A stretch of DNA of 64,000 nt from Eledone cirrhosa (Eukaryota): the NCBI GenBank assembly GCA_964016885.1, contig OZ024743.1, forward strand, positions 5,766,001-5,830,000, given 5' to 3'. Positions within the stretch are counted from its first letter, which is position 1, and every line of letters begins with the position of its first letter. Under the pieces are notes generated by a model. It did not search any database and had not been told where the DNA came from. It worked only from the letters and a program-made list of their open reading frames with translations. Shown here piece by piece: positions 11,780 through 59,702 of the stretch. The translations under genes and the position numbers were made by a program.

Positions 11780-12060
11780 GACAAACGACCGTCCCTCACA
11801 AGGGTCAACGGAAAATTTCAAGGCAAACCAGCACACAGCATTACCGTGTGTGATGGCGAGGCTAAAGCGCTGAAACAACCAGGTACCCTTACAAGCACCA
11901 CTTGAGAGTCACTGACTGTGGCGTTCCAGATGAGATACCTACCTCTTATCCAAGGACAATGGATAAGACCATCTGGTCTCTTCCCATCAATTCTGGATAA
12001 TCCATCTGGCTCTAGAACTGAGGGGATATTTACCCGAGCTAAAGCCTGCTTAATGATCAG
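11780..12060 (-). mobile_element. CRE-like fragment (restriction-like endonuclease region)
   Basis: Minus strand reads DGKRPDGL..PWIRGRYLIWNATVSD and FQRFSLAITHGNA. Confidence 0.7.
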
Positions 12061-22002: not shown

Positions 22003-22357
22003 TCATACACATGTGGGCATGCCTACAAAGTCGGAAAACAGCACAGCTCCCATGACTTTTGGAAACATTTTTTCACGCTTAGAGTTGCTGAAGCATGGAA
22101 CAAACTACCTGCACCAGTTGTTAGCTGTTGAGACACTGCATCCTTTAAAACCTCCATGCTTCCTGAAATTCACCAACACTCTACCTCATACCCCCCCCCC
22201 CTCTCTATACACATGCACACATGTGTATCATGACTCATACACTGTTCATTTTCCTGACATTTGTACATTATTCTATGTACTATACATGCACCTTTGATGA
22301 GTTGTAGTGCACCTGAGCACTGTACACAATAATTTCATTATTATTATTATTATTATT
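22003..22357 (+). mobile_element. CR1 LINE 3' fragment
   Basis: Homologous to 41835-42180; 3' UTR GAGTTGTAGTGCACCTGAGCAC and (ATT)n tail. Confidence 0.9.
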
Positions 22358-22487
22358 AAATGCTTCTTTCATATAGTAAACCCCTTCCCCAAACACATTA
22401 TACATGCATATGTATGCACCCCCAACACATTAGCACACCTACCACATGAATGTACTCCTCACATCCTGTCCCAGGCTCACAAAATAG

Positions 22488-24095: not shown

Positions 24096-24329
24096 AAACA
24101 TGTATTCACTATTACTGCTACACACATCCATATACTTTACACACAAACACATATTTACCTGCACATATCCAGTTACATTCACTCTGAGATACACACATAC
24201 ACATTTGACCTACATCCTTATACATACACACTCACTGTGGCTCACACACACACACATACAGTATCATATTCACACCAACACATACACATTGACACAAAAT
24301 CATGTACACTTACATCAACAACATATATT

Positions 24330-26510
24330 ATCATCATCATCATCATCGTTTAACGTCCATGTTCCACGCTTGCATGGGTTTGGACGGGAGTTTTCCCACT
24401 TGAGGCAAGAATGGTTGTCTTGCTCGTATAGGACTGTCTGGCGGGTTTTCTACAGCTGGATGCCCTTCCTAACACCAACCACATTTACAGTGTAGAACTG
24501 GGAGGTTTTTACCGTGTTACCTACACGCCCACATTACAGCGTGGACTGTGTGTTTTTTGTCGTGACACCTACACGACCTCATTTGTTTCGGCCTGGATGT
24601 TGTAGTACCAACATAACTTTACATCGAAAGAGGTGGTGTGGATGGGGTGGGGGTAGTGGGATGGGGGGTATATTTTGTTAGAGGTGCCTACTGACTGTAG
24701 TAGGTTTCACTTTGTACTTAGGTAAGGCGGGTCTTCTCTATTACTGTGTAGCGCCAAAGGTCTCGGTCCAGTGACATTGTCTTGGAGAGGTGTAAGTGTG
24801 TGAGGTTGGAATTTATCAAGTTGTCCCAGGTTTTTCTGGGTCTGCCTACTCCGTGGCTACCGTCTATTTTTATTGCCCTGCACTTTTTTATACAGCTGTC
24901 GTCTTTCATGCGCATCACGTGACCATACCAACGTAGTCTTCTCTTGAGTAAACAACATCTGATCCCTCTTATTTCTAATTTTTTCCTTAGTTCGTTTATG
25001 CTTTGCCGTTCACGTATATTACTATTACACATCCAGCGGAGCATGCAAGCTTCGTTCCTCTCCAGTCTGCGTATATCCTCTGCACACAATGCCCAGGTCT
25101 CACTGCCATGCAACATTGCTGTTCGTATGCAGGCATCATACAGCCTGTCTTTCATTTTTAGGGAGAACCCTTTAGCGGCTAATAGTGGTATAAGCTCTCT
25201 GAACTTTTTCCATCCAGTTCTGACTCTAGCTACTGTACTTTCAGAGCACCCTCCCCCACTGCTGATTTTGTCACCCAGGTAACGGAAGCTGTCCACTATT
25301 TCTATAGAACCATCTGTGCAATGGAATGAGCTAGTATTTTGTGGGCACTTGCTGCTACTTATTGCACCAGAGCACCGGCCACATATAAAATCTATGTTCT
25401 TAGTTAGCTTACCTGTGATCCCACTACATCTTTTATGCACCCATACTTTGCATTTGGGACATAAAATGGAGTTTCTACCTACTCCTTTCCTACACACTGA
25501 GCATGGCCATTTCCCGGATGGGACCGGTGCCCTATTTTCCTTCCTACAAACTAGAACTTTAGTCTTAGACAGGTTAATTTTAAGGCCCTTTTGATTCTAG
25601 GCCATGCTTCCATGTTTGGAATTTCTTCTCTAGTTCGGCCATTGATTCAGCTATGAGCGTTAGATCATCTGCGTATAGGAGTTCCCATGGGCAGCCGGTC
25701 TTGAACTCCACTGTTATAGCCTGAAGGGCAATAATAAATAGTAGGGGGTTAAGAACGGAGCCCTGATGAACACCAACTTTTACGCCAAACTCTTCACTAT
25801 ATTCGTTGTTAATTCTAACCTTGCTGACTGTTTCTTTATACATGGCTTGTATAGCTCTCACAAGTCATTCATCAACACCTAGTTTTCTAAGAGCCCACCA
25901 GATAGTGGAACGGGGGACTCTGTCGAAGGCTTTCTCCAAGTCGACAAAAGCTAAGTATAGGGTTTACTTTTAGCTAGGTACTTCTCCTGTAGTTGTCGTA
26001 CAATGAAAAGCGCGTCTGTGGTACTTTTACCCGACACAAACCCGAACTTCATTTCATCTAGATCAATTCTCTCTGATTAGTTGCGCTATTACTCTTTCTG
26101 TGACCTTCATGACCTGGTCGATTAATTTAATGCCGCTATAGTTACTCCTATTTAGGGCATCTCCTTTACCCTTGTAGCAGTTAATGAGGATGCTGCTACG
26201 CCAGTCCTTCGGAACGACACCATTCTGTATGACTTGGTTTACTATCCGGGTGACCATGGTGTGTCCCACCGTTCCAGAAGCTTTCAGCATTTCAGCAACT
26301 ATTTCCGAAGGCCCAGCCGCCTTACCAGTCTTCATATCTTTGATTGCCTTGCTTATTATACTACCTTCGACTAACACTGCTGGTCCCTCTATTGGGTCGA
26401 TGTGGGGGAGACTGTCTTTCTCCCATTTATTCTCCTCATTTAGTAGCCTTTCGTAGTGACACTTCCACGCTACCTTCTTATCAGCGTCAGTGATGGCAAG
26501 TACACCATCA
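24330..26510 (-). mobile_element. RTE family B LINE, 5'-truncated and disrupted
   Basis: ORF pieces 26063-26377, 25580-25861 (YADD) and 24718-25497; (GAT)n tail at 24330. Confidence 0.95.
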
Positions 26511-30566: not shown

Positions 30567-30708
30567 ATGTTCCCCATTTGCAAACAAACAGTTGGCTTTC
30601 AGCGACACTTTTATAAAATAATAATGTCTTCATACAGTAGTTTTGTCCATAACAAAGCTTATGTTAATGGAGAATGGATATCTTCTAAAGATGGGAAAAT
30701 GTTTAAAG
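30567..30708 (+). CDS. ALDH5A1: SSADH first recognisable coding exon (putative mitochondrial presequence plus AYVNGEW)
   Basis: Polypyrimidine tract ending ctag|ATG. Reads MFPICKQTVGFQRHFYKIIMSSYSSFVHNKAYVNGEWISSKDGKMFK, ends G|gtaaat (phase 1) and joins in frame to 32746. Confidence 0.85.
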
Positions 30709-30980: not shown

Positions 30981-31198
30981 AAATAGAAGTTTTTGCCGTA
31001 TTTCTGACTAAAGAAATTTTAGCCTGATAGTGGGGCTTAGAACCCTCTAAGGAATGGAAAAAGATGAGTATTGATGTACATGGGAGTTGAACCCACATCT
31101 TTAGTTATTCAGACCACTGTGCTACCATTACACTGGTTCTAAACCCCACTATCAGGCTAAAATTTCTTTAGTAAAAAATACAGCAAAAGCTTCTATTT
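30981..31198. repeat. 64-bp inverted repeats enclosing a minus-strand tRNA-like head
   Basis: 30981-31044 is the imperfect reverse complement of 31135-31198. The loop on the minus strand reads AGTGTAATGGTAGCAC...GGGTTCAACTCCC. Confidence 0.8.
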
Positions 31199-31199
31199 C

Positions 31200-31970
31200 T
31201 ATTTTCAAGCTCACTCGCTGTTTCAAAACAAGCTTGCTCATTTAGACTTTTGTTTAAATTTTCGAAAGTATACCTACTTTTTAAGAAAAAATACTTAAGA
31301 AGAACAGAGTCTTATTATTTTTATCATGCATTTTTCTTGTTTGGGACCAATTTTCTGCACATATGGCTGAGAATACAGTAAGGAGGATAAAGAACACTGA
31401 AATAACTGTTATACCTGGTGGACTGACTTCTCTGTTACAACCCCTTGATGGTTCACTAAACAAGCCTTTTAAGGCACACATGAGAGAAGAATGGGATAAT
31501 TGGATGAAGAATCTACAACATGAACTGTCACCAACAGGACAAATGAAGAAGCCTACATTTTCCCAGGTAACCCAGTAGGTGAAAAACTCGTGGGGTGCTC
31601 TTAAAACTGAGACAGTTATAAAAGCTTTCAAAAAATGTGGCATCAGCAACACCCTAGATGACAAAGATAATTTTCTGTATAATGATAGCGACACAAGTGA
31701 TTCTGAAAACAGTGATGACCCCGAAGAATGCAAGGAAGATGATGAATTTCAGGAACTAGATGAGGGTGACAGCCAGGAAATCAATGAGGGTGAAGCCAGG
31801 AAATCAATGAGGATGACAGTACTCGTGATATTATAAGATTTGAAAGTGATTAAAATGTTAATAGCATTGATAGTGTTAATTCCCTTTAATTTTATTTTTC
31901 CTGGATATTCATGTTAAATTTAGAGTGCGTTCTATATTCCGGTGCATCTTATATTCCAAAAAATACGATA
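31200..31970 (+). mobile_element. pogo-family (DDE_1) transposase relic with right TIR
   Basis: VIPGGLTSLLQPLDGSLNKPFKAHMREEW, KAFKKCGIS and an acidic tail. TIR-like GCATCTTATATTCCAAAAAATACGATA. Confidence 0.85.
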
Positions 31971-32745: not shown

Positions 32746-32867
32746 TGACCAATCCTGCAAATGGAAATTGTATTGGAGAAGTCCCTGACATTGGACCTGA
32801 ACAGACTAAAGTAGCCATTGATGCTGCTTATAAAGCATTCTATACATGGAAGAAAACAACTGCTCGT
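32746..32867 (+). CDS. ALDH5A1: SSADH coding exon (VTNPANGNCIGEVPD...AFYTWKKTTAR)
   Basis: tgtag| acceptor and |gtaaga donor. Matches the ALDH N-terminal VxNPAxG motif. Confidence 0.95.
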
Positions 32868-33176: not shown

Positions 33177-33260
33177 GAAAGAAGCAAAATCTTGAAGAAA
33201 TGGTTTCAGTTGATGGAAGATAATAAATCTGCACTTGCTGAACTTCTGACATTAGAACAG
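33177..33260 (+). CDS. ALDH5A1: SSADH coding exon (ERSKILKKWFQLMEDNKSALAELLTLEQ)
   Basis: aacag| acceptor and |gtgagt donor; 84 bp, phase 0-0. Resembles SSADH ERSxLLRKW...LAxIITxE. Confidence 0.95.
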
Positions 33261-33889
33261 GTGAGTTATCTGCTATCTGTCTACTCCATATTTTGGTATA
33301 TATATATATTTATAATTTTCTATCTATTTGAATTATTTCACTTAGCTCAATTTGTGTAACCCTTTTGATACCAAACTGCCTGAAACTGACTCTGGCACTA
33401 TGGTACAGATTTATATTTTTAAATGTTTTTGTTTATCTAAAATTATTCCATCAGAATTTTTTGTCAGATCCATTAAGTTATGTTTCAAACTCTAGCCTAA
33501 TAATGTGAAAGGTAATTAGTTATATTATTATATCTCTTGATTATTTTTGAAATTATTTGAAACATAGGCAATATCTTTTAGTGCAAATTACTGCTAGCAA
33601 CAAATCTTTATAACCATTTTTCTATATGTAAGAGCTACTAACTATTGATTAAGGAAGTTGGTGCTTATTCTGCTATGGTGATTAGGCTCTAAAACTGAAA
33701 CATGACTGTTGCTAATAACAAAGACCAGATTTTATTTTAAGCACGAGAATTAAATGCATAAAAACTAATTTTTAATTTCATGAAATTACCTCCCCATTGT
33801 GAGTTGCTAACGATTGATGGTAGGTTTTTGTTTCCTTTCCTTTTACTAGAGAGAAACTTTAATTCATTTAGAATTTTAGTATATGTATT

Positions 33890-34522
33890 TAGCTAAAGCT
33901 GTATATAGCTATGTTGTGGCCACACTTAGAATTTGCATCACCAGTCTGGAACCCCTATCTTGCTCAGAACATTGACCGCCTGGAAACTGTTCAGAGACGT
34001 GCAACCAAGCGAATACCTTCCATTAGGCATCTACCATTCTCTGAACACCTTGCTTCTCTGGGCATGGATACATTGAAGCTCTGACGCCTGGCAACTGACT
34101 TGGTAAACACCCACAAAATTATTAACCATCTTGCCAACAACAACCCTGAGTATCTTTTTGATTTCCATGTGTCTAACACATGTGGGCATGCCAACAAAGT
34201 GAGAAAACAGCACAACTCCCATGACTTTCGGAAAGACTTTTTCACGCTCAGAGTTGCTGAAGCATGGAACAGAGTTGCTGAAGCATGGAACAAACTACTT
34301 GCATCAGTTATTAGCTGTCGAGACACTGCATCCTTTAAAACCTCCATGCTTCCTGAAATTCGCCAACACTACACCTAATATTCCCCTCCATACACACGCA
34401 TACCATGACTCATACACTATTCACTTCCCTGACATTTGTATATTGTTCTATGTACTATACATGCACCTTTGATGAGTTGTAGTGTACCTGAGCACTGTAC
34501 ACAATAATTTCATTATTATTAT
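33890..34522 (+). mobile_element. CR1 LINE 3' fragment
   Basis: Homologous to 37070-37640, with an internal duplication of AGAGTTGCTGAAGCATGGAAC; (ATT)n tail. Confidence 0.92.
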
Positions 34523-34918
34523 AGTACCGCAGACCTGCTTATCTTAAGCTATGTAGGAGTTATTTCCCTTAGCTCAAATTTGATTACTATTACGCAAGTT
34601 ACTGTTGGATAAAACATCTTCATAAACCCCTTTCCTATCTGTAAAAACTGCTGTCTTTGCATCTAGCAGATTCATAATGACTGCACTGATGATCCCAATA
34701 AGACCAACATATGTCACTTAGCACCATTCCCGTTAATAAAGATAAGATTTGTTCTTAAGTATGCAAATTAAATTATTTAATTCCATAGAACCAAAGCCAG
34801 TTTTGGGTATCAATTTTGAGGGATTTACTAAAATTATTAATTATTTCATGGCTGAGATTGTAACATGATTCTTAAATAAATTTTTTTTTTTTTTTATTGT
34901 TCTATGATATATATATTA

Positions 34919-35189: not shown

Positions 35190-38100
35190 GTTGCTATAAT
35201 ATGGGTTGAACTGGTGCAGGATGGTGTTGTAACACAATGACTGATGCTACAATAGAGAGACACACTAAGGAAAAAGAGAGACACACTAAGCAAAGACATC
35301 AAATTGTTGGATCAGGTTATGAAAATTACAGAAAGAGTGATAGGAAAGTTAATGAAATATAGAATTAATGTTGAAGAGATCTAATTTGGCTTTATGCCAA
35401 GAAGAAGCACTATTGATGCTATATTTTTAGTGATATAAATACAAAAGTACTTAGCCAAGAATAAGCCCCTATAATTAGCATTTGTTGATCTGGAAGTGGC
35501 TATTGATAGAAACCCGTGCTCTATAATCTGATGGGTGCTCAGAAAAGTAGAGATAGATGAATGCTGTGTGAGAACTGTACAAATCATGTACATGGTTGCA
35601 GTCAGCAAGGTGGGGGCTAATAATGAATACAGTGTTGAATTTAGCATGTGGGTAGGTGTTCACCAAAGCACAGTTCTCAGCTCCCTCCTGCTTATTATAA
35701 TCCTTCAGACATTAATAGGAAGAGGCAAAATAGATCGTCCAACCACCTCAAACAGGTGACAAAAAAGGCAGTGCTTCAATTTGAGCAGCGCATAGCAACC
35801 AACCCTGACAGTAAGGTGTTCTGGAAGTATGTTCACTCAAAGCAGAGGCCTCACTCTCCAGTTGGTCCTCTTCGCAATCCCCACACAAGCCAGGTTACTG
35901 ACGACCCCAAGGAATGCGCAGAGCTCATTGCTGAATGCTATGCAGGCATTTTCACTATTGAAGACCAGAGTGTGCCATCTCCACCACCTATGACACCGGA
36001 CTCTATTACAACCATGGAATTTACACCTGCAATGCTGCGACGTCACCTAAAAAATAAACGCAACCATGCCTCTCCTGGTCTTGATGGTGTTACGTACCTG
36101 CTTCTTAAACATGGTGGGTACTTCCTTCTACACCAGCTATCACGCTTCTTCCAATTCTGTCTGAACAACAGTGCTACTCCAGAACAGTGGAAAACTGCTA
36201 GTGTCATTTCTCTGTTCAAAAAGGGTGACCGCACATCACCTGTGAACTATTGTCCAGTCAGTCTTACTAGTTGCATCGCCAAACTGATGGAATCCTGTGT
36301 CAGGGAAACACTTTGGAACTTCTGGAGCTCTCAGTCTTATCCGGCCCTCGCAATTTGGATTTATCCCCAACTCCAGCTGCTGTGATCAACTTATAGAGTT
36401 TCTTGAGGACATCACCCGGATCACTGATGGCGGCTCATGGGTGGATGTTGTTTACCTTACTTTGCGAAGGCCTTCAATTCTGTGCCACACAAAAGGCTTA
36501 TGGCAAAACTCTCTGCAATGGGTGTGAAGGATGATCTTTTTAACTGGTTGAAGTCCTTCATTCTCAGTCGAAGAGAGGTAGTCACGGTTCTGGGACAGCA
36601 TTCCTCACCATATGAGATGTCTGGTGTACCACAGGGATCTGTTCTTGGCCCCCTTTTGTTTGTGGCATATATTAATGACATAGATGCCAACTTAAGGAAT
36701 GCGGCAGTACTAAAGTACGCAGACGACATCAAGCTGTACCTTGAGATAAAAAGGACAGATCCTGAACACTATAGATCTTGCTTGCAGTCTGACCTGGATA
36801 CAATGCAACAATGGATCTCAGACTGGCAACTTAAGCTGGCTGTGGGCAAGTGCACCACCATGCATTTTGGGAGTAAAAACCCAGCGTCCACATACTCCCT
36901 CCACAGCACTAATATCAAGAAGTCTTCCTGTGAACGTGACCTGGGCATTACGGTCAGCAGCGATTTGCGTTGGATGAGGCACGTCTCTAAAATTGTCAAG
37001 AAGGCCGAGGGTGTCTTAGCATCACTCAGCAAGACCTTTGTCAGCCGCTCTCCAGATATCTATTTAAGGCTGTATACAGCTATGGTGCGACCACACTTAG
37101 AATTTGCATCACCAGTCTGGAACCCCTATCTTGCTCAGGACATTGACCGCCTGGAAACTGTTCAGAGACGTGCAACCAAGCGAATACCCTCCATCAGGCA
37201 TCTACCATACTCTGAGCGCCTTGCTTCCCTGGGCATGGATTCATTGAAGCTCCGACGCCTGGCAACTGACTTGGTAAACACCCGCAAAATTGTTAACCAT
37301 GTTGCCAACAACAACCCTGAGTACCTTTTTGATTTCCATGTGTCTAACACACGTGGACATGCCCACAAAGTAAGAAAACAGCACAGTTCCCATGACTTTC
37401 AGAAACATTTTTTCATGCTCAGAGTTGCTGAAGCATGGAACAAACTACCTGCATCAGTTGTTAGCTGTCAAGACACTGCATCCTTTAAAGCCTCCATGCT
37501 TCCCGAGATCCGCCAACACTACAGCTAACACATACACACATGTACTTCCCTGACATTTGTGTATTATTCTATGTACTATATTGACGAGTTGTAGTGCACC
37601 TGAGCATTTTACACAATAATTTCATTATTATATTATTATAAGAGGAATTCAAGACAGGATGTCCATGAGAACTCTTTTTTGCTGATGATCTGTAGAACTA
37701 GAGCAGAAATTGCAGACATGGAAACAAAATCTGGAATCAAAGGGTCTCAAACTAAACTTATGAAAGAGTAAATATTTAATAAGAAGGATAAGTCTCCAAT
37801 ACCATCAGGTAAATGGCCATGCTTAATATGCCAAAAGGGAATGAGTAGAAACCCAACATGATGCATCTAGTGTGGACAGCAGAGGCACAAGAAAGATAGT
37901 AAGATCACAGGTAGACTGATAGAGAAGGTAGACTTTATATATGATAAATGTACAGCAGTAGTCAACAGTAAAGGTACTCAGGAAATTAACTCCTTCATGC
38001 TCAGAAGGCTCACTGGAAATAATAGATATAACTTTTGCTATTTAGGAGACCTCATTAGCAGTGGAGGTGGATGTGCTGAAAGTATTGTAGCCAGAATGAG

Positions 38101-38190
38101 AACAGGGTGGAAGAAATTCAGAGAGTTGTTACCTCAGCTAACAACAAAAGTCTTCTTTCTGAGTGAAGGGCAGATTAAATGATGCTTCTG
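35190..38190 (+). mobile_element. Old RTE relic (35190-35715 and 37641-38190) split by a CR1 insertion
   Basis: VGVHQSTVLSS..IILQT ends at ~35715 and resumes as EEFKTGCP at 37641; FCYLGDLISSGGGCAES follows. Confidence 0.8.
35716..37640 (+). mobile_element. CR1 LINE, 5'-truncated
   Basis: ORFs 35648-36385 and 36437-37528: SPGLDG, NYCPVSLTS, FAKAFNSV, GVPQGSVLGP, YADD, ERDLG, VRPHLEF; (ATT)n tail. Confidence 0.96.
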
Positions 38191-38195
38191 TTTAA

Positions 38196-38413
38196 CGCAT
38201 TAGCATTTACATTATTCTATATTTACTATTGTATTTTCACAGTAAAGGCTTTATCTTACATAATTATTTCACATAATATTGAATCTACGAGATTTTGATA
38301 TTTATTTTGAGAACAATACCTTAATGTAGGTATAAGCGGCCAGTTGCAGCCAGTTTGAGCAGAAAGAGGTGAGAGAGTTTTGGTTGGATATGGCTGGTTT
38401 AAATGCTTAAAGG
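38196..38413 (+). mobile_element. piggyBac-type MITE
   Basis: TTAA-flanked and homologous over its length to 15290-15510. Confidence 0.8.
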
Positions 38414-38480
38414 TTAAACTACTAAAAATTGTAAATAAACTTCCTTATCTTAGATATTTTGATTTATTTTAATTTGCCAG

Positions 38481-38651
38481 GGAAAGGCTTTGTCAGATGC
38501 TGTTAATGAAGTCACATATGGAGCAAGTTTCTTTGAGTGGTTTGCTGAAGAGGCAAAGCGTGTGTATGGAGACATAGCTCCACCCACAGCTAATGATCGA
38601 AGGATCCTTTTAATGAGAGAGCCAATTGGTGTGGCAGGACTCATTACACCA
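38481..38651 (+). CDS. ALDH5A1: SSADH coding exon (GKALSDAVNEV...FEWFAEEAKRVYGD...EPIGVAGLITP)
   Basis: gccag| acceptor and |gtaagt donor; 171 bp, phase 0-0. EWFAEEAKRVYGD is diagnostic of SSADH. Confidence 0.97.
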
Positions 38652-39066
38652 GTAAGTTATTTTTGAGTTGTCTTATTATTTATTTAGACACTACACTTTA
38701 TGTGTATTTTTTATAACTTTGCTGACTCTATAACAATGCAATTGTTTTTGTCCTAACTAATGATTTAAAATTAGATCAATTGCTAAACATTTAAACTTAA
38801 GAATAAAATAGAAATAATTATCTTTATAATCATGAATTGACTATAAAACAGCACATTTAGTGATATACAATGCTGTGTAGTCATCACAAAGACTCTTATG
38901 GTTCTCTGTTGTTGGTGAATTTTAACTGGTCTTATAACATAATTGTTTCATATATAACTTGACCCATTGTTCAAATATCAACAAACTATATGCAGAAAAA
39001 ATGCAAATGAAAGTCTCCTTGTAAGAATCACAATTTTGCTATTCTTTTATTTTTTTATTTTTCTAG

Positions 39067-39183
39067 TGGAATTTTCCAATTGCAATGATTACACGAAAAT
39101 TAGGTGCACTGCTAGCTGTTGGTTGCACTGCAGTAATAAAACCTGCTGAAGATACACCTCTGTCTGCTCTTGCTCTTTGTCAG
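39067..39183 (+). CDS. ALDH5A1: SSADH coding exon ([39 protein letters not shown])
   Basis: tctag| acceptor and |gtaaga donor; 117 bp, phase 0-0. Contains the PWNFP and KPAEDTP motifs. Confidence 0.97.
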
Positions 39184-40042
39184 GTAAGAATAAACATTGA
39201 GAAGTAGCTTGCTTTACCACAAAATATCAATTTCTTTTTACTATCCCTTTTTAATTTTGTGATTATTTTGAAAGGAGGTGATGATATTCAATATAAAATT
39301 ATTTTTATATTGATTTGCGGCATAGCTGTGTTACTACCGTTGTGAGTTAGCATTATTCCATTCAGTATTGCTAAATATTGCAGAAAAGTACTCTATTTAA
39401 GTCAGAGTTATGCAGTATATATCAATGGAGCTGGGGTCCTTGCTGGAAGTGTAAGGGGCAGTGGTGTCATGGGGACAGAGGGCAAAGCCAAAAGCAGAAG
39501 GGTGTAGTAATATCACATAATGGGAAGCAGGAAGTAGGTGGCAGTGTTGTGGGCTCTTCTTGCCCTCTTGTCAATGATTGGCTAGGGAAGCAGGTTGTAG
39601 TTTTTGCTCTGTGCATAGGGGATACGTGATTGTATTTTCTAGTCAGGTGTAAAGTTTGGCTGAGCACTTTCAGACACAAATATACCCCATTCTGGACAAG
39701 ATCAACCAGTGAGACATCCTACAAAGTAGGTGAGCTATGTTTATCCCCTTTTGTAACATCAGCTATTATGGCATTAGGCCTTTTTTCTATTGAATTAACA
39801 AGACACCTGATTTGATAGAGATGTATGTAAAAACAATGTTGACCGTAACATCTACCACTAACAATAATTACACTGTCACTATCTCCTATGATTATTATCA
39901 TGAATATCAATTGCAACTAAATCGATATGCTTCCATTTCATCTGTTAATATCAAGTCTTCAGAATATATTGCCTTGAAAATAGCTTCAAAATATTGAATA
40001 TATTTTGTAGGAAAATAACAAGTCTCACATGACAATAGTCAT

Positions 40043-40175
40043 TGTGGCCAAGTGGTTAAGGTAAAGAACTAGAAATCGATAAAACAAAGCACCAGTAACG
40101 CAATGTGGTCGATTTAATCGACTTTCCCTTCCCCCCTTCAAATTTCTGGCCTTGTGCCTAAAATAGAAACAATTT
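40043..40175 (+). mobile_element. Internally deleted SINE
   Basis: TGGCCAAGTGGTTAAGG A-box fused to the CGATAAAACAAAGCACCAGT...GGCCTTGTGCCTAAAATAGAAACAATT body. Confidence 0.6.
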
Positions 40176-40349
40176 GTAGTGCACCTGAGCAATATACACA
40201 ATAATTTTCATTATTATTTCATTTTTTATGACCACTGAAAAAAGATTTCCATGAAGTTTGTTACTTTCTAGATCATTTAGATTCATTTCTTTTTGTAAGA
40301 CCCGTTTTGTATTAACTACAACTTATATTAAATCTCTGTGAAGGTTTAA

Positions 40350-41774
40350 CCCTTGAGCATTCGAATCGGACATATCCGGCCAGAATTCTCTCACCTCTTT
40401 CTGTTCAAACCGGCCACTTATACCAATGTTAAGGTATTGTTCTCAAAATAAATAATAACATCATCAAAATCTCATAGATTCGATATAATAATAATAATAA
40501 TAATAATAATGAAATTATTGTGTACAGTGCTCAGGTGCACTACAACTCATCAAAGGTGCATGTATAGTACATAGAATAATGTACAAATGTCAGGAAAATG
40601 AACAGTGTATGAGTCATGATACAATAACAATAATGAAATATTGTGTACAGTGCCCAGGTGCACCACAACCCATCAAAAAAGTGCATGTACAGTACATAGG
40701 GCAATGCACAAACATCAGTAAAATGAAAAGTGCACGAGTCATGATACACACATGTGTGCATGTGTATGGAAGGGGTACATCAGGTGTAGTTTTGGCGTAT
40801 TTCGGGAAGCATAAGTGTCTTAAAGGATGCAGTGTCTCGGCAGCTAACAATTGACGCAGGCAGTTTGTTCCATGCTTCAGCAACTCTGAGCGTGAAAAAA
40901 TGTCTACGAAAGTCATGGGAGCTGTGCTGTTTTCTGATCTTGTAGGCATGTCCACGTGTGTTAGACACATGGAGATCAAAGAGGCGCTCAGGGTTGCAAT
41001 TGGCGAGATGGTTAAAAACTTTGTGGGTATTCACCAAGTCCATTGCCAGACGTCGGAGCTTCAATGAATCCATGCCCAGGGAAGCAAGGCGTTCAGAGTA
41101 TGGTAGGTGTCTGATGGAGGGTATGCGCTTGGTTGCACGTCTCTGAACAGTTTCCAGGAGGTCAATGTTCCGAGCAAGATAGGGGTTCCAGACTGATGAT
41201 GCGAATTCCAAGTGTGGTCGCACCATAGCTGTATACAGTTTTAAATAGATGGCTGGAGAGCGGCTAACAAAGGTCTTGCTGAGTGATGCCAAGACACCCT
41301 CGGCCTTCTTGACAATCTTAGAGACATGCTTTGTCCAACGCAAATCGTTGCTGACAGTAATGCCCAGGTCACGTTCACAAGAGGACTTTTTGATATCAGT
41401 GTTGTGGAGGGAGTATGTGGACGCTGGATTTTTCCTTCCAAAATGCATGGTGGTACACTTGTCCACAGCCAGCTTCAGTTGCCAGTCTGTGATCCATTGC
41501 TGCATTGTGTCCAGGTCTGATTGTAGGAAAGAGTTGTAAATTTCAGGATCAGTCCTTTTGATTTCAAGGTACAGCTTGATGTCATCTGCATATTTTAGTA
41601 CCGTGGCATTCTGTAAGTTGGCATCTATGTCATTAATATATGCCACAAACAAAAGAGGACCAAGAACAGATCCCTGTGGTACACCAGATGACATCTCATC
41701 AATGTGAGATTATAATGTGAGATAAAGCCTTTACTACAAAAATACAATAGTAGAGTAATGTGAATGCTAAAGGA
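40350..41774 (-). mobile_element. piggyBac-type MITE split by a CR1
   Basis: TTAACCCTTGAGCATT at 40346 and AATGCTAAAGGATTAA at 41763-41778. The halves are the reverse complement of the 15290 MITE. Confidence 0.75.
40488..41698 (-). mobile_element. CR1 LINE, 5'-truncated, with a doubled 3' tail
   Basis: Open ORF 40780-41694 (GVPQGSVLGP, YADD). Two tandem 3' UTR copies at 40488-40625 and 40625-40780. Confidence 0.96.
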
Positions 41775-41780
41775 TTAAAA

Positions 41781-42183
41781 TAAATCATTAACCATCTTGC
41801 CAACAACCACCCTGAGCACCTTTTTGATTTCCATGTGTCTAACACACGTGGACATGCCTACAAAGTCAGAAAACAGCACAGCTCCCATGACTTTCGGAAA
41901 CATTTTTTCACGCTCAGAGTTGCTGAAACATGGAACAAACTACCTGCATCAGTTGTTAGCTGTCGAGACACTGCATCCTTTAAAACCGCCATGCTTCCTG
42001 AGATTCGCCAACACTACACCTGATGTCCCCTCCTCCATATACACGCACACGTTTATTTCATGTCTTGTATACTGTTCATTTTCCTGACATTTGTACATTA
42101 TTCTATGTACTATACATGCACCTTTGATGAGTTGTAGTGTACCTGAGCACTGTAAACAATAATTTCATTATTATTTTTATTAT
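41781..42183 (+). mobile_element. CR1 LINE 3' fragment
   Basis: SNTRGHAYKVRKQ...FFTLRVAETWNKLP; (ATT)n tail ending ~55 bp before an exon. Confidence 0.93.
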
Positions 42184-42238
42184 TCTGTTTTTGCTTGTAT
42201 TTTATTACTATCAGTTATTTTTTCTCTTCTTTACTTAG

Positions 42239-42382
42239 CTTGCAGAAGAAGCAGGTGTCCCTGCTGGAGTTGTTAATGTTATAACATCTTCAAGAAAGCA
42301 AACACCTGCTGTAGGAAAGCTTCTCTGTGAAAGCCCCCAAATAGCGACAATTTCCTTCACAGGTTCAACAGATGTGGGGAAG
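42239..42382 (+). CDS. ALDH5A1: SSADH coding exon (LAEEAGVPAGVVNV...ISFTGSTDVGK)
   Basis: cttag| acceptor and |gtaaga donor; 144 bp, phase 0-0. Contains the NAD-binding FTGST motif. Confidence 0.97.
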
Positions 42383-43188
42383 GTAAGACATCTTTTCTAT
42401 GTAACATGAAGTGTTGAATGAGAGCCACAGGTTCAGGTGTTTGTTTTAAAGAATATTGTTGAATGCATAGCTGATGAATATGGGTAACAGAGATGAGGGA
42501 GTGATAGATGTCAGCTGGGAACCTCATGCAGGAGAGAGAGAGAGATGGTATTGGTTGAAATAAAGAGATAGTGAGAGTTTTCCCTAGTTGAAGTGCCTGG
42601 AACATATTAACCAAATCTAGTTTCAAAAAAGCTATATTAGGGGTTTTGTTAATAAATGAACTTGATTTAAGTTAAACTATTTCTGATTTTTAGTGCTCAT
42701 GAAAATCAATTTGATGGAAATCTATATATAAATTTGAGTGACTTCCATCCGTCTGTTTTTCACACAATGTGTGTGTGTGTGTTTGTGTGAATGTGTGTGT
42801 ATGTGTAAAAGGAGGGAAGGGATGGTGAAAAGACTATAGCAAAACAGCAACTGGCGTTCCATTTCCTACACTGTATGACTGTATGTGTGTGTTTGTGTAA
42901 ATGTATTTGTGTGTGTGCTTATGTGAATGTATGCATGTTTCTGTAAATGTATGTGTATTTGTGTGAATGAATATCTGTGTGTGTATTTTTGTATGTGTGT
43001 CTGTGTTTGCGCGTTTTTATTTATATCCTCATACATATAAATGTATGCATATGCACATACACACACGCACATAGATATAGACATGTGTGTCAGCTTGTTG
43101 AAAAAATTCCTAGTATATCATAAAGCTGTGTTTTTAGAAATCATGCTTACTGTCTTTAAATTAAACGTTTTTAATATATTTTTCATAG

Positions 43189-43332
43189 ATTTTACTGTCA
43201 AATTCAGCTTCATCTGTGAAAAGGTTATCTCTAGAACTTGGTGGAAATGCTGCATTTATTGTATTTGACAGTGCTGATATTGATAAAGCTGTGAGAGGGG
43301 CTATGGCATGTAAATTCCGTTGCTCTGGTCAG
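43189..43332 (+). CDS. ALDH5A1: SSADH coding exon ([48 protein letters not shown]); last exon in window
   Basis: catag| acceptor and |gtgaga donor; 144 bp, phase 0-0. Contains the catalytic-Glu motif LELGG. The next exon (TCV..) was not found before 64000. Confidence 0.97.
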
Positions 43333-43412
43333 GTGAGAAAATAAAACTTTCTAATGAATTCCTTCATGTTTTGTTTTTCATCCCAAAGTTTAGTCCAAGG
43401 ATTCCTATTTCA

Positions 43413-44599
43413 TAATAATAATAATAATAATGAAATTATTGTGTAAAGTGCTCAGGTGCACTACAACTCGTCAATATAGTATATAGAATAATACACAAAT
43501 GCCAGGGAAGTACATGTTTGTATGTGTTAGCTGTAGTGTTGGCGGATCTCGGGAAGCATGGAGGCCTTAAAGGATGCAGCGTCTCGACAGCTAACAACTG
43601 ATGCAGGTAGTTTGTTCCATGCTTCAGCAACTCTGAGCGTGAAAAAATGTTTCCGAAAGTCATGGGAACTGTGCTGTTTTCTTACTTTGTGGGCATGTCC
43701 ACGTGTGTTAGACACATGGAAATCGAAAAGGCACTCAGGGTTGTTGTTGGCAACATGGTTAACAATTTTGTGGGTGTTTACCAAGTCAGTTGCCAGGCGT
43801 CGGAGCTTCAATGAATCCATGCCCAGGGAAGCAAGGCGATCAGAGTATGGTAGATGCCTGATGGAGGGTATTCGCTTGGTTGCACGTCTCTGAACAGTTT
43901 CCAGGCGGTCAATGTCCTGAGCAAGATAGGGGTTCCAGACTGGTGATGCAAATTCTAAGTGTGGTCGCACCATAGCTGTATACAGCCTTAAATAGATATC
44001 TGGAGAGCGGCTGACAAAGGTCTTGCTGAGTGATGCTAAGACACCCTCGGCCCTCTTGACAATTTTAGAGACGTGCCTCGTCCAACGCAAATCGCTGCTG
44101 ACCGTAATGCCCAGGTCACGTTCACAGGAAGACTTCTTGATATTAGTGCTGTGGAGGGAATATGTGGACGCTGGGTTTTTACTCCCAAAATGCATGGTGG
44201 TGCACTTGTCCACAGCTAGCTTGAGTTGCCAGTCTGAGATCCACTGTTGCATTGTGTCCAGGTCAGACTGCAAGCAAGATCTATAGTGTTCAGGATCTGT
44301 CCTTTTTATCTCAAGGTACAGCTTGATGTCGTCTGCGTACTTTAGTACTGTGGCATTCCTTAAGTTGGCATCTATGTCATTAATATATGCCACAAACAAA
44401 AGGGGGCCAAGAACAGATCCCTGAGGTACACCAGATGACATCTCATATGGTGAGGAATGCTGTCCCAGAACCGTGACTACCTCTCTTCGACTGAGAATGA
44501 AGGACTTCAACCAGTTAAAAAGATCATCCTTCACACCCATTGCAGAGAGTTTTGCCATAAGCCTTTTGTGCGGCACAGAATTGAAGGCCTTCGCAAAGT
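43413..44599 (-). mobile_element. CR1 LINE, 5'-truncated
   Basis: Open ORF 43527-44576, nearly identical to 36460-37640 including the short 3' UTR variant. Confidence 0.96.
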
Positions 44600-49690: not shown

Positions 49691-49740
49691 ATTTGTATGT
49701 ATGTATATTTATGTACATGTGTATTTATGTATGTATGTAA

Positions 49741-51726
49741 ATAGTTGCTGAGATGCTGAAGGCATCTGGCACGGTGGGACACACCATGGTCACCCGCATA
49801 GTTAACCAAGTCGTACAGAATGGGGTTGTTCCGAAGGACTGGCATAGCAGCATCATCGTTAACTGTTATAAGGGTAAAGGAGACGCCCTAGATAGGAGTA
49901 ACTATAGAGGCATTAAATTAATCGACCAGGTCATGAAGGTCACGGAAAAAGTAATAGCGCAACTAATCAGAGAGAGAATTGACCTAGATGAAATGCAGTT
50001 CGGGTTTGTGTCAGGCAAAAGTACCACAGACGCTCTTTTCATAGTACGACAACTACAGGAGAAGTACCTAGCTAAAGGTAAACCCCTCTACTTAGCTTTT
50101 GTCGACTTGGAGAAAGCCTTCGACAGAGTCCCCCGCTCCATTATCTGGTGGGCTCTTAGAAAACTAGGCGTTGACGAATGGCTTGTGAGGGCTATACAAG
50201 CCATGTATAAAGAAACAGTCAGCAAGGTTAGAATTAACAACGAATATAGTGAAGAGTTTAGCGTAAAAGTTGGCGTCCATCAGGGCTCTGTTCTCAGCCC
50301 CCTACTATTTATTATTGCCCTCCAGGCTATAACAGAGGAGTTCAAGACAGGCTGCCCATGGGAACTCCTATACGCAGACGACCTGACACTCATAGCGGAA
50401 TCAATGGCCGAGCTAGAGAAGAAATTCCAAACATGGAAGCACGGCCTAGAGTCAAAAGGACTTAAAATTAACCTGGCTAAGACCAAAGTACTAGTTTGTA
50501 GGAAAGAAAACAAGGCGGTGGTCCCTTCTGGGAAATGGTCGTGCTCGGTGTGTAGGAAAGGCGTAGGTAGAAACTCCATTTTATGTCCTAAATGCAAAGT
50601 ATGGGTGCATAAAAGATGTAGTGGGATCACAGGTAAGCTAACTAAGAACATAGATTTTACATGTGGCCGGTGTTCTGGTGCAATAAGTAGCAGCAAGTGC
50701 CCACAAAATACTAGCTCTTTCAACTGTGCAGAGGGCTCTATAGAAATAGTGGACAGCTTCCGTTACCTGGGTGACAAAATCAGCAGTGGGGGAGGGTGCT
50801 CTGAAAGTACAGTAGCTAGAGTCAGAACTGGATGGAAAAAATTCAGAGAGCTTATACCACTATTAGCAGCTAAAGGGTTCTCCCTAAAAATGAAAGGCAG
50901 GCTGTATGATGCCTGCATACGAACAGCAATGTTGCATGGCAGTGAGACCTGGGCATTGTGTGCAGAGGATATACGCAGACTAGAGAGGAACGAAGCTGGC
51001 ATGCTCCGCTGGATGTGTAATAGTAATATACGTGAACGGCAAAGCATAAACGAACTAAGGAAAAAATTAGAAATAAGAGGGATCAGATGTTGTTTACTCG
51101 AGAGAAGGCTACGTTGGTATGGACACGTGATGCGCATGAAAGACGATAGCTGTATAACAAGGTGCAGGGCAATAAAGATAGACGGTAGCCACGGAATAGG
51201 CAGACCTAGAAAAACCTGGGACGAGCTGATAAACTCTGACCTCACACACTTACACCTCTCCAAGACAATGTCACTGGACCGAGACCTTTGGCGGTACTCA
51301 GTAACAGAGAAGACCCGCCTTACCTAAATATATAGTAAAACCTACTCCAGCCAGTAGGCATCTCTAACAAAATACACCCCGTCCCACCACCACCACCCCC
51401 ACCCCATCCACACCACCCCGTTCAATGTAAAGTTATGTTGGTGCCGCGCCATCGAGGCCGAAACAAATGAGATCGTGTAGGTGTCACGACAAAAAAACAC
51501 ACAGTCCACGCTGTAATGTGGCCGTGTAGGCAACACGGTAAAAACCTCCCAGACCCACACTGTAAATGTGGTTGGTGTTAGGAAGGGCATCCAACTGTAG
51601 AAAACCTGCCAGACAGTCCTATGCGAGCAAGACAATCACTCTTGCCTCAAGTGGGACTACCCCCGTCCAAACCCATGCAAGCGTGGAACACGGACGTTAA
51701 ACGTTGATGATGATGATGATGATGAT
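49741..51726 (+). mobile_element. RTE family B LINE, 5'-truncated with an open ORF
   Basis: ORF 49753-51327 (524 aa) with YADD and an intact C4HC3 insert; (GAT)n tail. Confidence 0.97.
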
Positions 51727-52023
51727 GTGTATTTATGTACATGTGTAATTGTATACATATGTATATTCCAGCCACCACTTTATCCTGTCAATTCCACCAA
51801 TCTTTTCACTAACCCATACACTCACCTTCACATTCATCACCTATCTCTCACTGACCAGTTAAAATTCTATGGCTATGCCCACTACCACCCTTTATCACCT
51901 TCCTTGACACATCCCTGTCCCCTTCACTGCCACTGCCACACTGTCCACCTTATTTTAATTACCCCTTCTCAATTAAATCCACTTTTCCCACCTCAAGTCT
52001 TCCTTATTTATTGAAATTTTAGA

Positions 52024-53241: not shown

Positions 53242-54721
53242 ATATTGTTATACTTTGGGAGGGTCATGTTGCCAATAAGAAACACACGCACCAGTTGCTT
53301 TCACTTCAATTTATTATAATAAATTTATAATAAATTTATAAATTTCTGGTTGGTTGGTTGGTTCCACAACCAGATAGTTGTTTATATATTGTCATAGTTC
53401 TTTCGTCACACAGTCTGTGACCTCTTCGGTGACTGGGGATTCCTTTCTTTGTTTTTGTGCCTCTCCTTTGTTCTGTCCTACGCCATTTTGTTTCTGTGTG
53501 TGTGTGTTGTGTGCTCAGTCTGCGCATGCGCCACATCCGGGTGTCTGTGTGTGTTTATGTTCATTTATTTATTTGTTTATTTACATGTTACTGGTTGGTT
53601 GTTTGTTCTATGTGTGTGTGTGTTTTCATTTTGTCCTTAATTGTAAGTTGTGATGTTGCTGTTCCACTCATATTTTCTATTTAATTTTGGTTGTAATTCT
53701 TTTATGTTTATTGCCTCTGTGATTTGTCTAAACATTGCGTCTTTTCTGTGTGTAGATTCTATTTTTATTTCTATGTTCTCTAATTTACCCTTGTGTTCTA
53801 TTTTAGCATGTTGGTAGAGTACAGATGATTCTTTACTATCTTGAAGGTCTCGCCAGTGTTCATTTATCCGTTCCCCTACACTACAAGCTGTCTCACCTAT
53901 GTACACTATATTTTTGTCTCTACATTGTCCTTCAGTACATCTTATGCTATACACTACATTTCTAGTTTTACAGTTAATATGGGGGCTTATTTTACAGGTT
54001 ATACATTTCTTATCTATACATGAGGGTCTTTGAAAAGGGTATGTCTTGCTAATAAGTATTTTTACGGAGGTACCTGGTCTTTCTACTATCTTAATATTGA
54101 GTTTATGTTTATCTAGGGCCCTTCTAAATTTGTAAGCTAATTCACCTCTAGGGGTTGTATCGATGAACATTACACTCTGGTATTTATTGCTATCATACCA
54201 TGAGTATATTCTATTAGCCTTGTTCCTAGTTCTTTCTATTCTATTCCAAAATTTGCTCCTATACAAGGGGCAGGTCCCATTTATGTCATTATTTACCATT
54301 TTTTCCCATTTGGTTCTGGCTCCTCTATACACTCTGATTTTATCTCTCTGATTGTAGCCAGAGAACTGCAAACGGTGGATGAAGTGTTGTATGTGTCTCT
54401 CTAGTTCTTCGGGGTTGCACATGCGGGACACGTTTCTCATCACCCGTACCAAATCCGCAATCAGTATGTTGATTTTGGTATGGTCCGAAACGGCCGAGTT
54501 TCGGTGGATCAGATGTTTGGAAGTCATGGGTTTGGCATAATGGGAATGGAGGATTTGTTTTTTGTTATTAATGGTATCTAACCAGAGCTCTGTGTCTAGT
54601 ACAGGTAATCGATGGTTGGGGTGTTTACTTGGGTAGTCTATAGTAACTCTAATGCTCTGGTGGATGGAGTTAGCTATTTGCTGGATGCTTTCCATTGTGT
54701 TTTTCTCTAGTTCCTGACTGT
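53242..54721 (-). mobile_element. Penelope-like element, inverted 5'-truncated arm
   Basis: ORF 53637-54695 with an intact GIY-YIG (NVVY...YIGET..S..ERINEH...EA) plus an inverted pLTR. Confidence 0.95.
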
Positions 54722-55370
54722 ACGGGTGATTAGAAACGTGTCCCGCATGTGCAACCCCGAAGAACTAGAGAGACACATACAACACTTCATCCACCGTATC
54801 CAAATGTATAACCTGTAAAATAAGCCCCCATATTAACTGTAAAACTAGAAATGTAGTGTATAGCATAAGATGTACTGAAGGACAATGTAGAGACAAAAAT
54901 ATAGTGTACATAGGTGAGACAGCTCGTAGTGTAGGGGAACGGATAAATGAACACTGGCAAGACCTTCAAGATAGTAAAGAATCATCTGTACTCTACGAAC
55001 ATGCTAAAATAGAACACAAGGGTAAATTAGAGAACATAGAAATAAAAATAGAATCTACACACAGAAAAGACGCAATGTTTAGACAAATCACAGAGGCAAT
55101 AAACATAAAAGAATTACAACCAAAATTAAATAGAAAATATGAGTGGAACAGCAACATCACAACTTACAATTAAGGACAAAATGAAAACACACACATAGAA
55201 CAAACAACCAACCAGTAACATGTAAATAAACAAATAAATAAATGAACATAAACACACACAGACACCCGGATGTGGCGCATGCGCAGACTGAGCACACAAC
55301 ACACACACAGAAACAAAATGGCGTAGGACAGAACAAAGGAGAGGCACAGAAACAAAGAAAGGAATCCCCA

Positions 55371-55413
55371 GTCACTGAAGAGGTCACAGAGTGTGTGACG
55401 AAAGAACTATGAC
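55371..55413 (+). ncRNA. Minimal type-I hammerhead ribozyme in the Penelope pLTR
   Basis: GTCA-CTGAAGA-gGTCACA gagtg TGTGAC-GAAA-GAAC-TA-TGAC. Confidence 0.75.
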
Positions 55414-58400: not shown

Positions 58401-59420
58401 GATTTGGTACGGGTGATGAGAAATGTGTTCCGCATGTGCAACCCCGAAGAACTAGAGAGACACATACAACACTTCATCCACCGTATGCAGTTCTCTGGCT
58501 ACAATCAGAGGGATAAAATCAGAGTGTATAGAGGAGCCAGAACCAAATGGGAAAAAATGGTAAATAATGACATAAATGGGACCTGCCCCTTGTATAGGAG
58601 CAAATTTTGGAATAGAATAGAAAGAACTAGGAACAAGGCTAATAGAATATACTCATGGTATGATAGCAATAAATACCAGAGTGTAATGTTCATCGATACA
58701 ACCCCTAGAGGTGAATTAGCTTACAAATTTAGAAGGGCCCTAGATAAACATAAACTCAATATTAAGATAGTAGAAAGACTAGGTACCTCCGTAAAAACAC
58801 TTATTAGCAAGACATACCCTTTTCAAAGACCCTCATGTATAGATAAGAAATGTATAACCTGTAAAATAAGCCCCCATATTAACTGTAAAACTAGAAATGT
58901 AGTGTATAGCATAAGATGTACTGAAGGACAATGTAGAGACAAAAATATAGTGTACATAGGTGAGACAGCTCGTAGTGTAGGGGAACGGATAAATGAACAC
59001 TAGCGAGACCTTCAAGATAGTAAAGAATCATCTGTACTCTACCAACATGCTAAAATAGAACACAAGGGTAAATTAGAGAACATAGAAATAAAAATAGAAT
59101 CTACACACAGAAAAGACGCAATGTTTAGACAAATCACAGAGGCAATAAACATAAAAGAATTACAACCAAAATTAAAAAGAAAATATGAGTGGAACAGCAA
59201 CATCACAACTTACAATTAAGGACAAAATGAAAACACACACGCACATAGAACAAACAACCAACCAGTAACATGTAAATAAACAAATAAATAAATGAACATA
59301 AACACACACAGACACCCGGATGTGGCGCATGCGCAGACTGAGCACACAACACACACACAGAAACAAAATGGCGTAGGATAGAACAAAGGAGAGGCACAAA
59401 AACAAAGAAAGGAATCCCCA

Positions 59421-59463
59421 GTCACTGAAGAGGTCACAGAGTGTGTGACGAAAGAACTATGAC
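59421..59463 (+). ncRNA. Minimal type-I hammerhead ribozyme in the second pLTR
   Basis: Identical to 55371-55413. The inverted-arm copy at 53391-53433 (-) has CCGAAGA in the core. Confidence 0.75.
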
Positions 59464-59702
59464 AATATATAAACAACTATCTGGTTGTGGAACCAACCAA
59501 CCAACCAGAAATTTATAAACTTATAAATTTATTATAAATTTATTATAATAAATTGAAGTGAAAGCAACTGGTGCGTGTGTTTCTTATTGGCAACATGACC
59601 CTCCCAAAGTATAACAATATCGGTTTCAACACACGATTTCAGATAAAGAATCTTGCTAAACAAATTCAGAAACGAAATATATATATATATATATACATAT
59701 GA

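What the first reader, a model, noticed from the sequence alone, without database searches (positions are those of the whole stretch)
36460..44599. Nested inverted CR1 pairs bracket phase-0 ALDH5A1 exons, predicting stop-free circRNAs
Seen: near-identical ~1.2-kb CR1 copies at 36460-37640 (+) and 43413-44599 (-) flank four exons, the downstream copy only ~80 bp from the donor. The exons total 171+117+144+144 = 576 nt, all phase 0. Inner copies give two more pairings: 36620-37640(+) with 40625-41698(-) around a 288-nt block, and 41781-42183(+) with 43413-43770(-) around another 288-nt block. Established: intronic inverted repeats promote back-splicing and ADAR antagonises it. Inference: three competing circles, each a multiple of 3 with no stop in the coding frame and with in-frame ATGs (endless ORFs), plus in-frame skipped mRNAs of a GABA-catabolism enzyme.
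Basis: partly seen in the sequence, partly recalled or inferred. Interest (0 to 1): 0.72.

Follow-up and report, generated by a model that had tools for sequence, protein, structure and literature searches.

The report
Young inverted LINEs around ancient exons
Several separate recent insertions of a common jumping gene landed in opposite directions around four exons of an octopus GABA-breakdown gene, so the unspliced RNA is predicted to form long double strands that likely attract RNA editing and at most a trace of accidental circular RNA, while only the normal spliced message was seen.

Summary
Observation confirmed. The gene is the ALDH5A1/SSADH orthologue of an octopod. Exons 38481-38651, 39067-39183, 42239-42382 and 43189-43332 are phase 0, and CR1-type copies B (35705-37639,+) and E (43411-44599,-) are 97.6% complementary over 1.18 kb. 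The circle reading is unproven. The four copies are separate insertions of different ages (best other copy in the genome about 99.9, 99.5, 98 and 94%); E resembles copies on other chromosomes more than its partner. Phase 0 is ancestral: exon borders match human, and 22 of 45 exon blocks in this gene would give stop-free circles, so 'endless ORF' carries no information. O. vulgaris has only 296 filtered circRNAs. Best reading: an incidental dsRNA, likely ADAR-edited, with trace circles at most. One oddity remains: seven copies in 22.6 kb, denser than all 20 control loci. The scan noted similar geometry at two other genes of this genome.

The parts
30567..30708 (+). SSADH coding exon 1 (142 nt, begins at ATG after an AG acceptor; phase 1 after)
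   Evidence: tblastn with P0001/P0002, splice sites and frame
32746..32867 (+). coding exon 2 (122 nt; phase 0 after)
33177..33260 (+). coding exon 3 (84 nt, phase 0-0)
33886..34526 (+). CR1-type copy A, 5'-truncated, about 0.64 kb, intron 3
35705..37639 (+). CR1-type copy B, 5'-truncated, 1.93 kb, intron 3; best other genomic copies 98%
38481..38651 (+). coding exon 4 (171 nt, phase 0-0)
   Evidence: covered by the spliced X4 contig
39067..39183 (+). coding exon 5 (117 nt, phase 0-0)
40489..40619 (-). CR1-type 3' fragment C2, set directly at the tail of copy C; 100% identical over 135 bp to the end of copy F
40620..41699 (-). CR1-type copy C, 5'-truncated, second young subfamily (99-100% to other copies, 89% to E), intron 5
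41782..42187 (+). CR1-type copy D, 0.4 kb, oldest of the four (best other copies 94-95%), intron 5, 51 nt before the exon 6 acceptor
42239..42382 (+). coding exon 6 (144 nt, phase 0-0; FTGS motif)
43189..43332 (+). coding exon 7 (144 nt, phase 0-0; ELGG motif; ends two codons before the catalytic Cys)
43411..44599 (-). CR1-type copy E, 5'-truncated, (ATT)n tail; 99.7-99.9% to 29 copies elsewhere; start of the 84-kb intron 7
22007..22358 (+). CR1-type copy F, 0.35 kb, upstream of coding exon 1

Best explanation
Separate insertions of a young, abundant CR1-type LINE have left nested inverted repeats in the introns of a normally spliced octopod SSADH gene; the pre-mRNA is predicted to fold into a 1.2-kb B-E duplex that is likely edited by ADAR and would yield at most trace, non-functional exon 4-7 circles. 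Shown: the geometry, the separate ages of the copies, the ancestral phase-0 borders, linear splicing. Inferred from established mechanism: B pairs first with C, then preferably with E, while D folds back on C/C2 inside intron 5; ADAR editing weakens the duplexes; any back-splicing is mainly 43332>38481 and rare (my odds: editing clusters about 80%, detectable trace junction about 35-40%, circle above 10% of linear junctions about 5%). The stop-free frame is a by-product of exon borders that are hundreds of millions of years older than the repeats.
For: Ages differ: E 99.7-99.9% to 29 copies elsewhere but 97.6% to B; C 99-100% to its own subfamily; B 98%; D 94-95%; 2,516-3,872 first-look candidates per query. 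Host protein is 88% identical to O. vulgaris, so the insertions are much younger than that split (inference). Human borders c.609/610, 870/871, 1014/1015 and 1402/1403 give spans of 261, 144 and 388 nt, equal to octopod exons 5+6, 7 and 8-10. 22 of 45 internal exon blocks give in-frame stop-free circles. Duplex energies: B-E -2332, B-C -1633, D-(C+C2) -604, D-E -535 kcal/mol; the local fold of 40480-42240 pairs 368 D bases with C/C2. X4 holds one 2,083-nt contig spliced linearly through all four exons with no other letters. Controls: inverted same-family partner of at least 300 bp in 2 of 20 loci, of at least 900 bp at 95% or more in 1 of 20; any-family inverted pair of at least 300 bp in 7 of 40 samples. 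Octopus circRNAs are low, 296 in total (PMC9699675); ubiquitous coleoid editing falls on repeats in introns and 3'UTRs (PMC9068888); mammalian median back-splicing is 0.04-0.2% of spliced reads (PMC8365531).
Against: The B-E pair is far longer and more perfect than the 30-40 nt reported as enough for circularisation (review PMC6965350). E sits 78 nt from the donor and is followed by an 84-kb intron, which would give time for back-splicing, and no same-family competitor for E lies in the 307 kb downstream. The cluster of 7 copies in 22.6 kb is denser than all 20 controls (naive Poisson P about 2e-4, post hoc) and plain chance does not explain it. No editing or back-splice data could be examined, so 'edited' and 'trace' are inferences.
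Confidence: 0.75

Rival explanations
1. The B-E duplex drives abundant back-splicing of exons 4-7, making a species-specific 576-nt circRNA that is a substantial product of the locus, without any selected function.
For: 1,167 predicted base pairs, perfect runs up to 213 bp, 78 nt to the donor, 84-kb downstream intron and no downstream same-family competitor. LINE-derived complementary pairs are linked to circRNA in maize (review passage).
Against: Only 296 filtered circRNAs in the O. vulgaris tissue survey, which the authors relate to ADAR. The X4 contig runs unbranched through both potential back-splice sites, a weak sign only. B can be captured by C before E is transcribed (inference).
Confidence: 0.15
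2. One reading: three competing circles and in-frame skipped mRNAs form an ADAR-tuned switch on GABA catabolism, with rolling-circle translation products.
For: All three circles are in frame with ATGs. Rolling-circle translation of endogenous circRNAs is reported in human cells (10.1101/473207). The repeated insertions cluster around these exons.
Against: The frame property is ancestral and shared by 22 of 45 blocks. E and C are very young. The circle ORF lacks the catalytic Cys (residue 310, exon 8) and the N-terminus, and a skipped mRNA would lack the NAD-binding motifs and ELGG. Rolling-circle products are reported as low in abundance and degraded. The D-E pair loses to the intra-intron hairpin. 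No skipping joint among the 4 joints listed.
Confidence: 0.03
3. The duplexes hardly form or matter, because introns 3 and 5 are spliced co-transcriptionally before E is made; the cluster only marks an insertion-prone stretch near the 5' end of a housekeeping gene.
For: Introns 3-6 are short (5.2, 0.4, 3.1 and 0.8 kb) with canonical sites. C2 sits exactly at the tail of C, which suggests insertion next to earlier copies. Other young LINE families also crowd the window.
Against: E begins only 5.8 kb after B, a short transcription delay, and intronic repeat editing is widespread in coleoids.
Confidence: 0.07

Closest known systems
Exonic circRNAs promoted by reverse-complementary intronic repeats (inverted Alu pairs; LINE1-like LLECRPs in maize; Zhang 2014, Ivanov 2015 and Chen 2018 as cited in review PMC6965350, passages read)
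   Same: TE-derived inverted pairs across flanking introns, nested pairs that could compete, and a same-intron pair that favours linear splicing.
   Different: Here the repeats are CR1-type LINE 3' ends, with a 1.2-kb, 97.6% arm that is longer than an Alu, in a coleoid with scarce circRNAs; no back-splice junction has been seen.
Ubiquitous A-to-I editing of repeats in coleoid introns and UTRs (PMC9068888, passages)
   Same: Long intronic dsRNA predicted from repeats in an expressed coleoid gene.
   Different: Editing at this locus was not observed; contigs of repeat sequence cannot be assigned to these copies.
CR1-group non-LTR retrotransposons (PMC4316615, passages)
   Same: Two ORFs, APE endonuclease plus RT, heavy 5' truncation, microsatellite 3' tail.
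   Different: The tail is (ATT)n, not the amniote octamer; the clade within the CR1/L2 group was not resolved by a tree.
Human ALDH5A1 (SSADH; PDB 2W8N, 2W8P)
   Same: Orthologous enzyme (O. vulgaris P0001 vs 2W8N E 8.7e-180) with shared exon borders in the phase-0 run.
   Different: The octopod gene spans about 206 kb with 84-kb and 92-kb introns; no circALDH5A1 paper was found.
Rolling-circle-translated circRNAs (rcORFs; 10.1101/473207, passages)
   Same: A stop-free in-frame circle with internal AUGs is possible.
   Different: No circle and no translation are shown; the property is automatic for blocks with equal end phases.

Membership tests
ALDH5A1/SSADH orthologue | Best hits are SSADH; intact ORF with catalytic motifs | tested here: met
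   Exon 4 is 89% identical to O. vulgaris SSADH; 11 exons give a 505-aa ORF with PWNFP, FTGS, ELGG, GQTC and EEIFGP
ALDH5A1/SSADH orthologue | Expressed as spliced mRNA | tested here: met
   X4 contig of 2,083 nt with three GT..AG joints; the run's kind is not on record, but it lacks unique intron cover and so behaves as RNA
CR1-group LINE | ORF2 with APE endonuclease and RT | tested here: met
   A 4.19-kb full-length relative (99.9% to E) has a 945-aa frame with PF03372/PF14529 and PF00078
CR1-group LINE | ORF1 with a zinc-finger/PHD-like motif | tested here: inconclusive
   434-aa frame with a Cys cluster that looks PHD-like by eye; no Pfam PHD hit at E 0.05
CR1-group LINE | 5'-truncated copies with a microsatellite 3' tail | tested here: met
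   All window copies are 5'-truncated; (ATT)n-type tail in 30 of 30 loci
CR1-group LINE | RT phylogeny places it in CR1 rather than L2, Crack or Daphne | not tested
   The 11 homologues returned carried no clade names; 'CR1' rests on architecture and recalled RT motifs
Repeat-driven exonic circRNA | Reverse-complementary match across the flanking introns | tested here: met
   B-E, B-C, A-E, A-C and D-E pairs
Repeat-driven exonic circRNA | Back-splice junction reads at canonical sites | tested here: inconclusive
   None among the 4 joints listed for X4 at 100% likeness; contigs drop rare forms and the library type is unknown
Repeat-driven exonic circRNA | RNase R resistance and dependence on the repeats | not testable with these tools
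   Needs bench data
Rolling-circle-translated circRNA | Length a multiple of 3, no stop, in-frame AUG | tested here: met
   equally true of 22 of 45 blocks
Rolling-circle-translated circRNA | Junction peptides or ribosome footprints | not testable with these tools
   No proteomics or ribosome profiling available
ADAR hyper-edited intronic dsRNA | A-to-G clusters in RNA that are absent from DNA | tested here: inconclusive

The most novel reading that the evidence does not exclude
Repeated CR1 insertions around exons 4-7 were retained because they build an ADAR-tuned back-splicing switch that diverts SSADH pre-mRNA into circles and so sets GABA breakdown in the neurons of this octopod: a new regulatory circRNA caught at birth, with datable parts.
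Probability: 0.04. Interest if true: 0.75.

Novelty: new member of a known kind. Interest (0 to 1): 0.22.

Why it matters
As it stands it is one more case of a known architecture. Its use is as a test site: a near-perfect 1.2-kb duplex from datable insertions, in a lineage with heavy editing and few circRNAs, allows one to ask whether ADAR stops new circRNAs from arising, using copy-specific bases and, if E segregates, present/absent genotypes. If abundant regulated circles were found, it would link transposon insertion, editing and GABA catabolism in a cephalopod brain.

Tried and rejected
1) RNA evidence: no RNA holder was listed by record. X4 behaves as RNA; laid at 95% and 100% likeness it showed linear joints only, no back-splice or skip. 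Contigs show presence, not absence, so this does not exclude circles. In one search, 71 joints were hidden; the joint table (4 rows) was complete. 2) Editing: not assessable, since repeat contigs come from thousands of copies and only 38400-43410 was laid. 3) Local inverted duplication or gene conversion as the origin of B-E: rejected, E is closer to distant copies. 4) Phase 0 as a sign of design: rejected. 5) Zygosity of E: in each of three DNA runs of one sample a single contig crosses from exon 7 27-28 letters past 43410 without a break, a weak hint that E is on both chromosomes; depth was only 5-7. 6) The upstream non-coding exon or promoter was not located. 7) Clade naming by homologues failed. 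8) Conservation of the insertions in other cephalopods could not be tested: no relative genomes are held. 9) Literature: 'circALDH5A1' and variants gave 0 papers; 'circular RNA+octopus+back-splic' gave 7 papers, 5 listed, none on this gene by listing; 'circRNA+CR1+flanking intron+chicken' gave 4, none on CR1-driven circles by listing or by the one passage read. The list of 296 O. vulgaris circRNAs was not found in the supplements as read (65,650 characters searched of a much larger archive), so whether SSADH is on it is unknown.
Full report
Observation. A self-comparison of the window finds the inverted pair 36459-37639(+)/43415-44599(-) at 97.55% over 1185 columns. The four exons have canonical ends, lengths 171, 117, 144 and 144, all phase 0; the three proposed circles are stop-free in the coding frame and the long junction reads CSGQ|GKAL. 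Each exon hits Pfam Aldedh and the three longer repeats tested (B, C, E) hit RVT_1. The inner pairs exist but are weaker: B-C 88.6% over 918 and D-E 79.8% gapped over 406.

The gene. Exon 4 is 89% identical to O. vulgaris SSADH, whose best solved relative is human SSADH. The gene has 11 coding exons (142, 122, 84, 171, 117, 144, 144, 159, 170, 59, 206 nt), an intact 505-aa frame, and introns of 84 kb after exon 7 and 92 kb after exon 10. The protein is 88% identical to O. vulgaris and 82% to Argonauta: an octopod, species not determined. Run X4, whose kind is not on record but which covers exons and not unique intron, holds one 2,083-nt contig joined 38651>39067, 39183>42239 and 42382>43189 with no other letters. 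The gene is expressed and linearly spliced.

Phase 0 is old. Human splice variants c.610-2, c.870+1, c.1015-2 and c.1402+2, with P203 in exon 3 and W204 in exon 4 (PMC10371128, passages), give spans of 261, 144 and 388 nt. These equal octopod exons 5+6, 7 and 8-10, and the P|W border is the same. The human borders at c.438 and c.726 are recalled, not seen. Six consecutive exons (3-8) are phase 0-0, so 22 of 45 internal exon blocks would make in-frame stop-free circles. An 'endless ORF' is therefore automatic. The circle would lack the catalytic Cys, which lies in exon 8 (GQTC at 307-310; the position is changed to Ala in 2W8P; its catalytic role is recalled), and a skipped mRNA would lack PWNFP, FTGS and ELGG. 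Neither could be an active enzyme (inference).

The repeats. A full-length relative is 4.19 kb with a 434-aa and a 945-aa frame, the second with APE endonuclease and RT. The copies are 5'-truncated and end in (ATT)n-type tails in 30 of 30 loci. This fits the CR1 group as described in PMC4316615 (passages); the clade was not fixed by a tree. The copies differ in age: E is 99.7-99.9% identical to 29 copies elsewhere but 97.6% to B; C is 99-100% to a second subfamily; B's best other matches are 98% and D's 94-95%. Each search had 2,516-3,872 first-look candidates, of which 40 were scored. The nest was thus built by separate insertions, the last very recent. B really spans 35705-37639; A, C2 and F are further copies.

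Background. I took 20 of the 39 other top matches to E (those on large contigs near the top of the list) with 10 kb on each side: 7 of 20 have another copy, 4 of 20 an inverted one, 2 of 20 one of at least 300 bp, and 1 of 20 a 930-bp, 98.9% partner. Of 40 evenly spaced 10-kb samples, 2 hold this family, 7 hold an inverted pair of any family of at least 300 bp at 80%, and 1 a pair of at least 1 kb at 95%. These are lower bounds, since tiles split long-range pairs, and the samples are not known to be genic. In a 3-Gb genome that implies thousands of such pairs (inference). The same gene has another pair, 1,645 bp at 95%, around exons 8-9, and a 2.0-kb pair at 92.6% around exons 1-7 if transcription starts upstream of 24311. 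Against my reading: seven copies of this family lie in 22.0-44.6 kb and none in the next 307 kb, and E has five neighbours of at least 100 bp within 10 kb, more than any control. This hotspot is unexplained; insertion bias is my preferred cause, helped by C2 sitting exactly at C's tail, but retention by selection is not excluded.

Mechanism. Predicted duplex energies are B-E -2332, B-C -1633, A-E -958, D-(C+C2) -604 and D-E -535 kcal/mol, and the local fold of 40480-42240 pairs D with C and C2, 82 nt away in the same intron. Same-intron pairs favour linear splicing (review PMC6965350, passages), so the 43332>42239 circle is the least likely. B-E is the strongest pair, with perfect runs up to 213 bp and over 300 A in each arm, an expected ADAR substrate; ubiquitous coleoid editing lies mostly in repeats of introns and 3'UTRs (PMC9068888, passages). 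E's closeness to the donor and the 84-kb intron favour some 43332>38481 back-splicing. Against abundance: O. vulgaris circRNAs are low, 296 after filtering, 200 of them in one tissue only (PMC9699675, main-text and supplement passages), and mammalian back-splicing has a median of 0.04-0.2% of spliced reads and is argued to be mostly error (PMC8365531, abstract and one section). Rolling-circle products are reported but are low in abundance and degraded (10.1101/473207, passages). The complete joint table for X4 at 100% likeness lists three linear joints and one repeat artefact; this is too weak to exclude circles.

Verdict. The geometry is real and stronger than average, but it is a known architecture made by recent independent insertions on top of an ancestral exon-phase pattern. 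Most likely it is an edited intronic dsRNA with trace circles. Earlier scan notes describe similar geometry at two other genes of this genome (unchecked AI notes, not used as support). Other papers seen: PMC8967140 (passages) and PMC10362595 (one passage); the rest as search listings only.

Noticed in passing
window 42372: A/G difference in exon 6: G in DNA runs X1 and X2, A in X3, X4 and the assembly, so an allele (Asp/Gly in FTGST-x-VGK; O. vulgaris has Gly), not editing.
   Followed up: partly
window 22007-44599: Seven copies of one CR1-type family in 22.6 kb and none in the following 307 kb; denser than 20 control loci. Cause unexplained.
   Followed up: partly
window 40489-40623 and 22224-22358: Fragment C2 is 100% identical over 135 bp to the 3' end of copy F and sits directly at the tail of copy C: insertion at an earlier copy's tail, or conversion.
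   Followed up: partly
window 53242-59680: Inverted pair 53242-54721/58135-59620 at 98.3% with nested repeats, a GIY-YIG frame (54769-55170) and a weak RT frame (57003-59000): looks like a young Penelope-type insertion in intron 7.
   Followed up: no
window 24311-26304 and 49739-51739: 2.0-kb inverted pair (92.6%) of a different LINE whose RT frame carries a PHD finger; it brackets coding exons 1-7. Copy 50074-51717 also pairs (95%, 1,645 bp) with a copy in intron 9.
   Followed up: partly
window 61171-64000: Tandem array with a period of about 58 bp and about 92% identity, running off the window end inside intron 7.
   Followed up: no
G000:C4 5809333-5893583 and 5910019-6002420: Introns of 84 kb and 92 kb make this gene about 206 kb long.
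   Followed up: no
window 10001-12000: CpG-rich stretch (o/e 0.84-0.97), a possible promoter; about 270 nt at the 5' end of the X4 contig are not accounted for by coding exons 1-3.
   Followed up: partly
window 31080-31134: Weak Rfam tRNA hit (32.8 bits, partial model) in intron 1, probably a tRNA-derived SINE; a DDE_1 transposase fragment lies beside it at 31285-31575.
   Followed up: no
L108 2819-4837: Tandem array of about 109-bp units derived from this CR1 family's 3' region at an unrelated locus.
   Followed up: no
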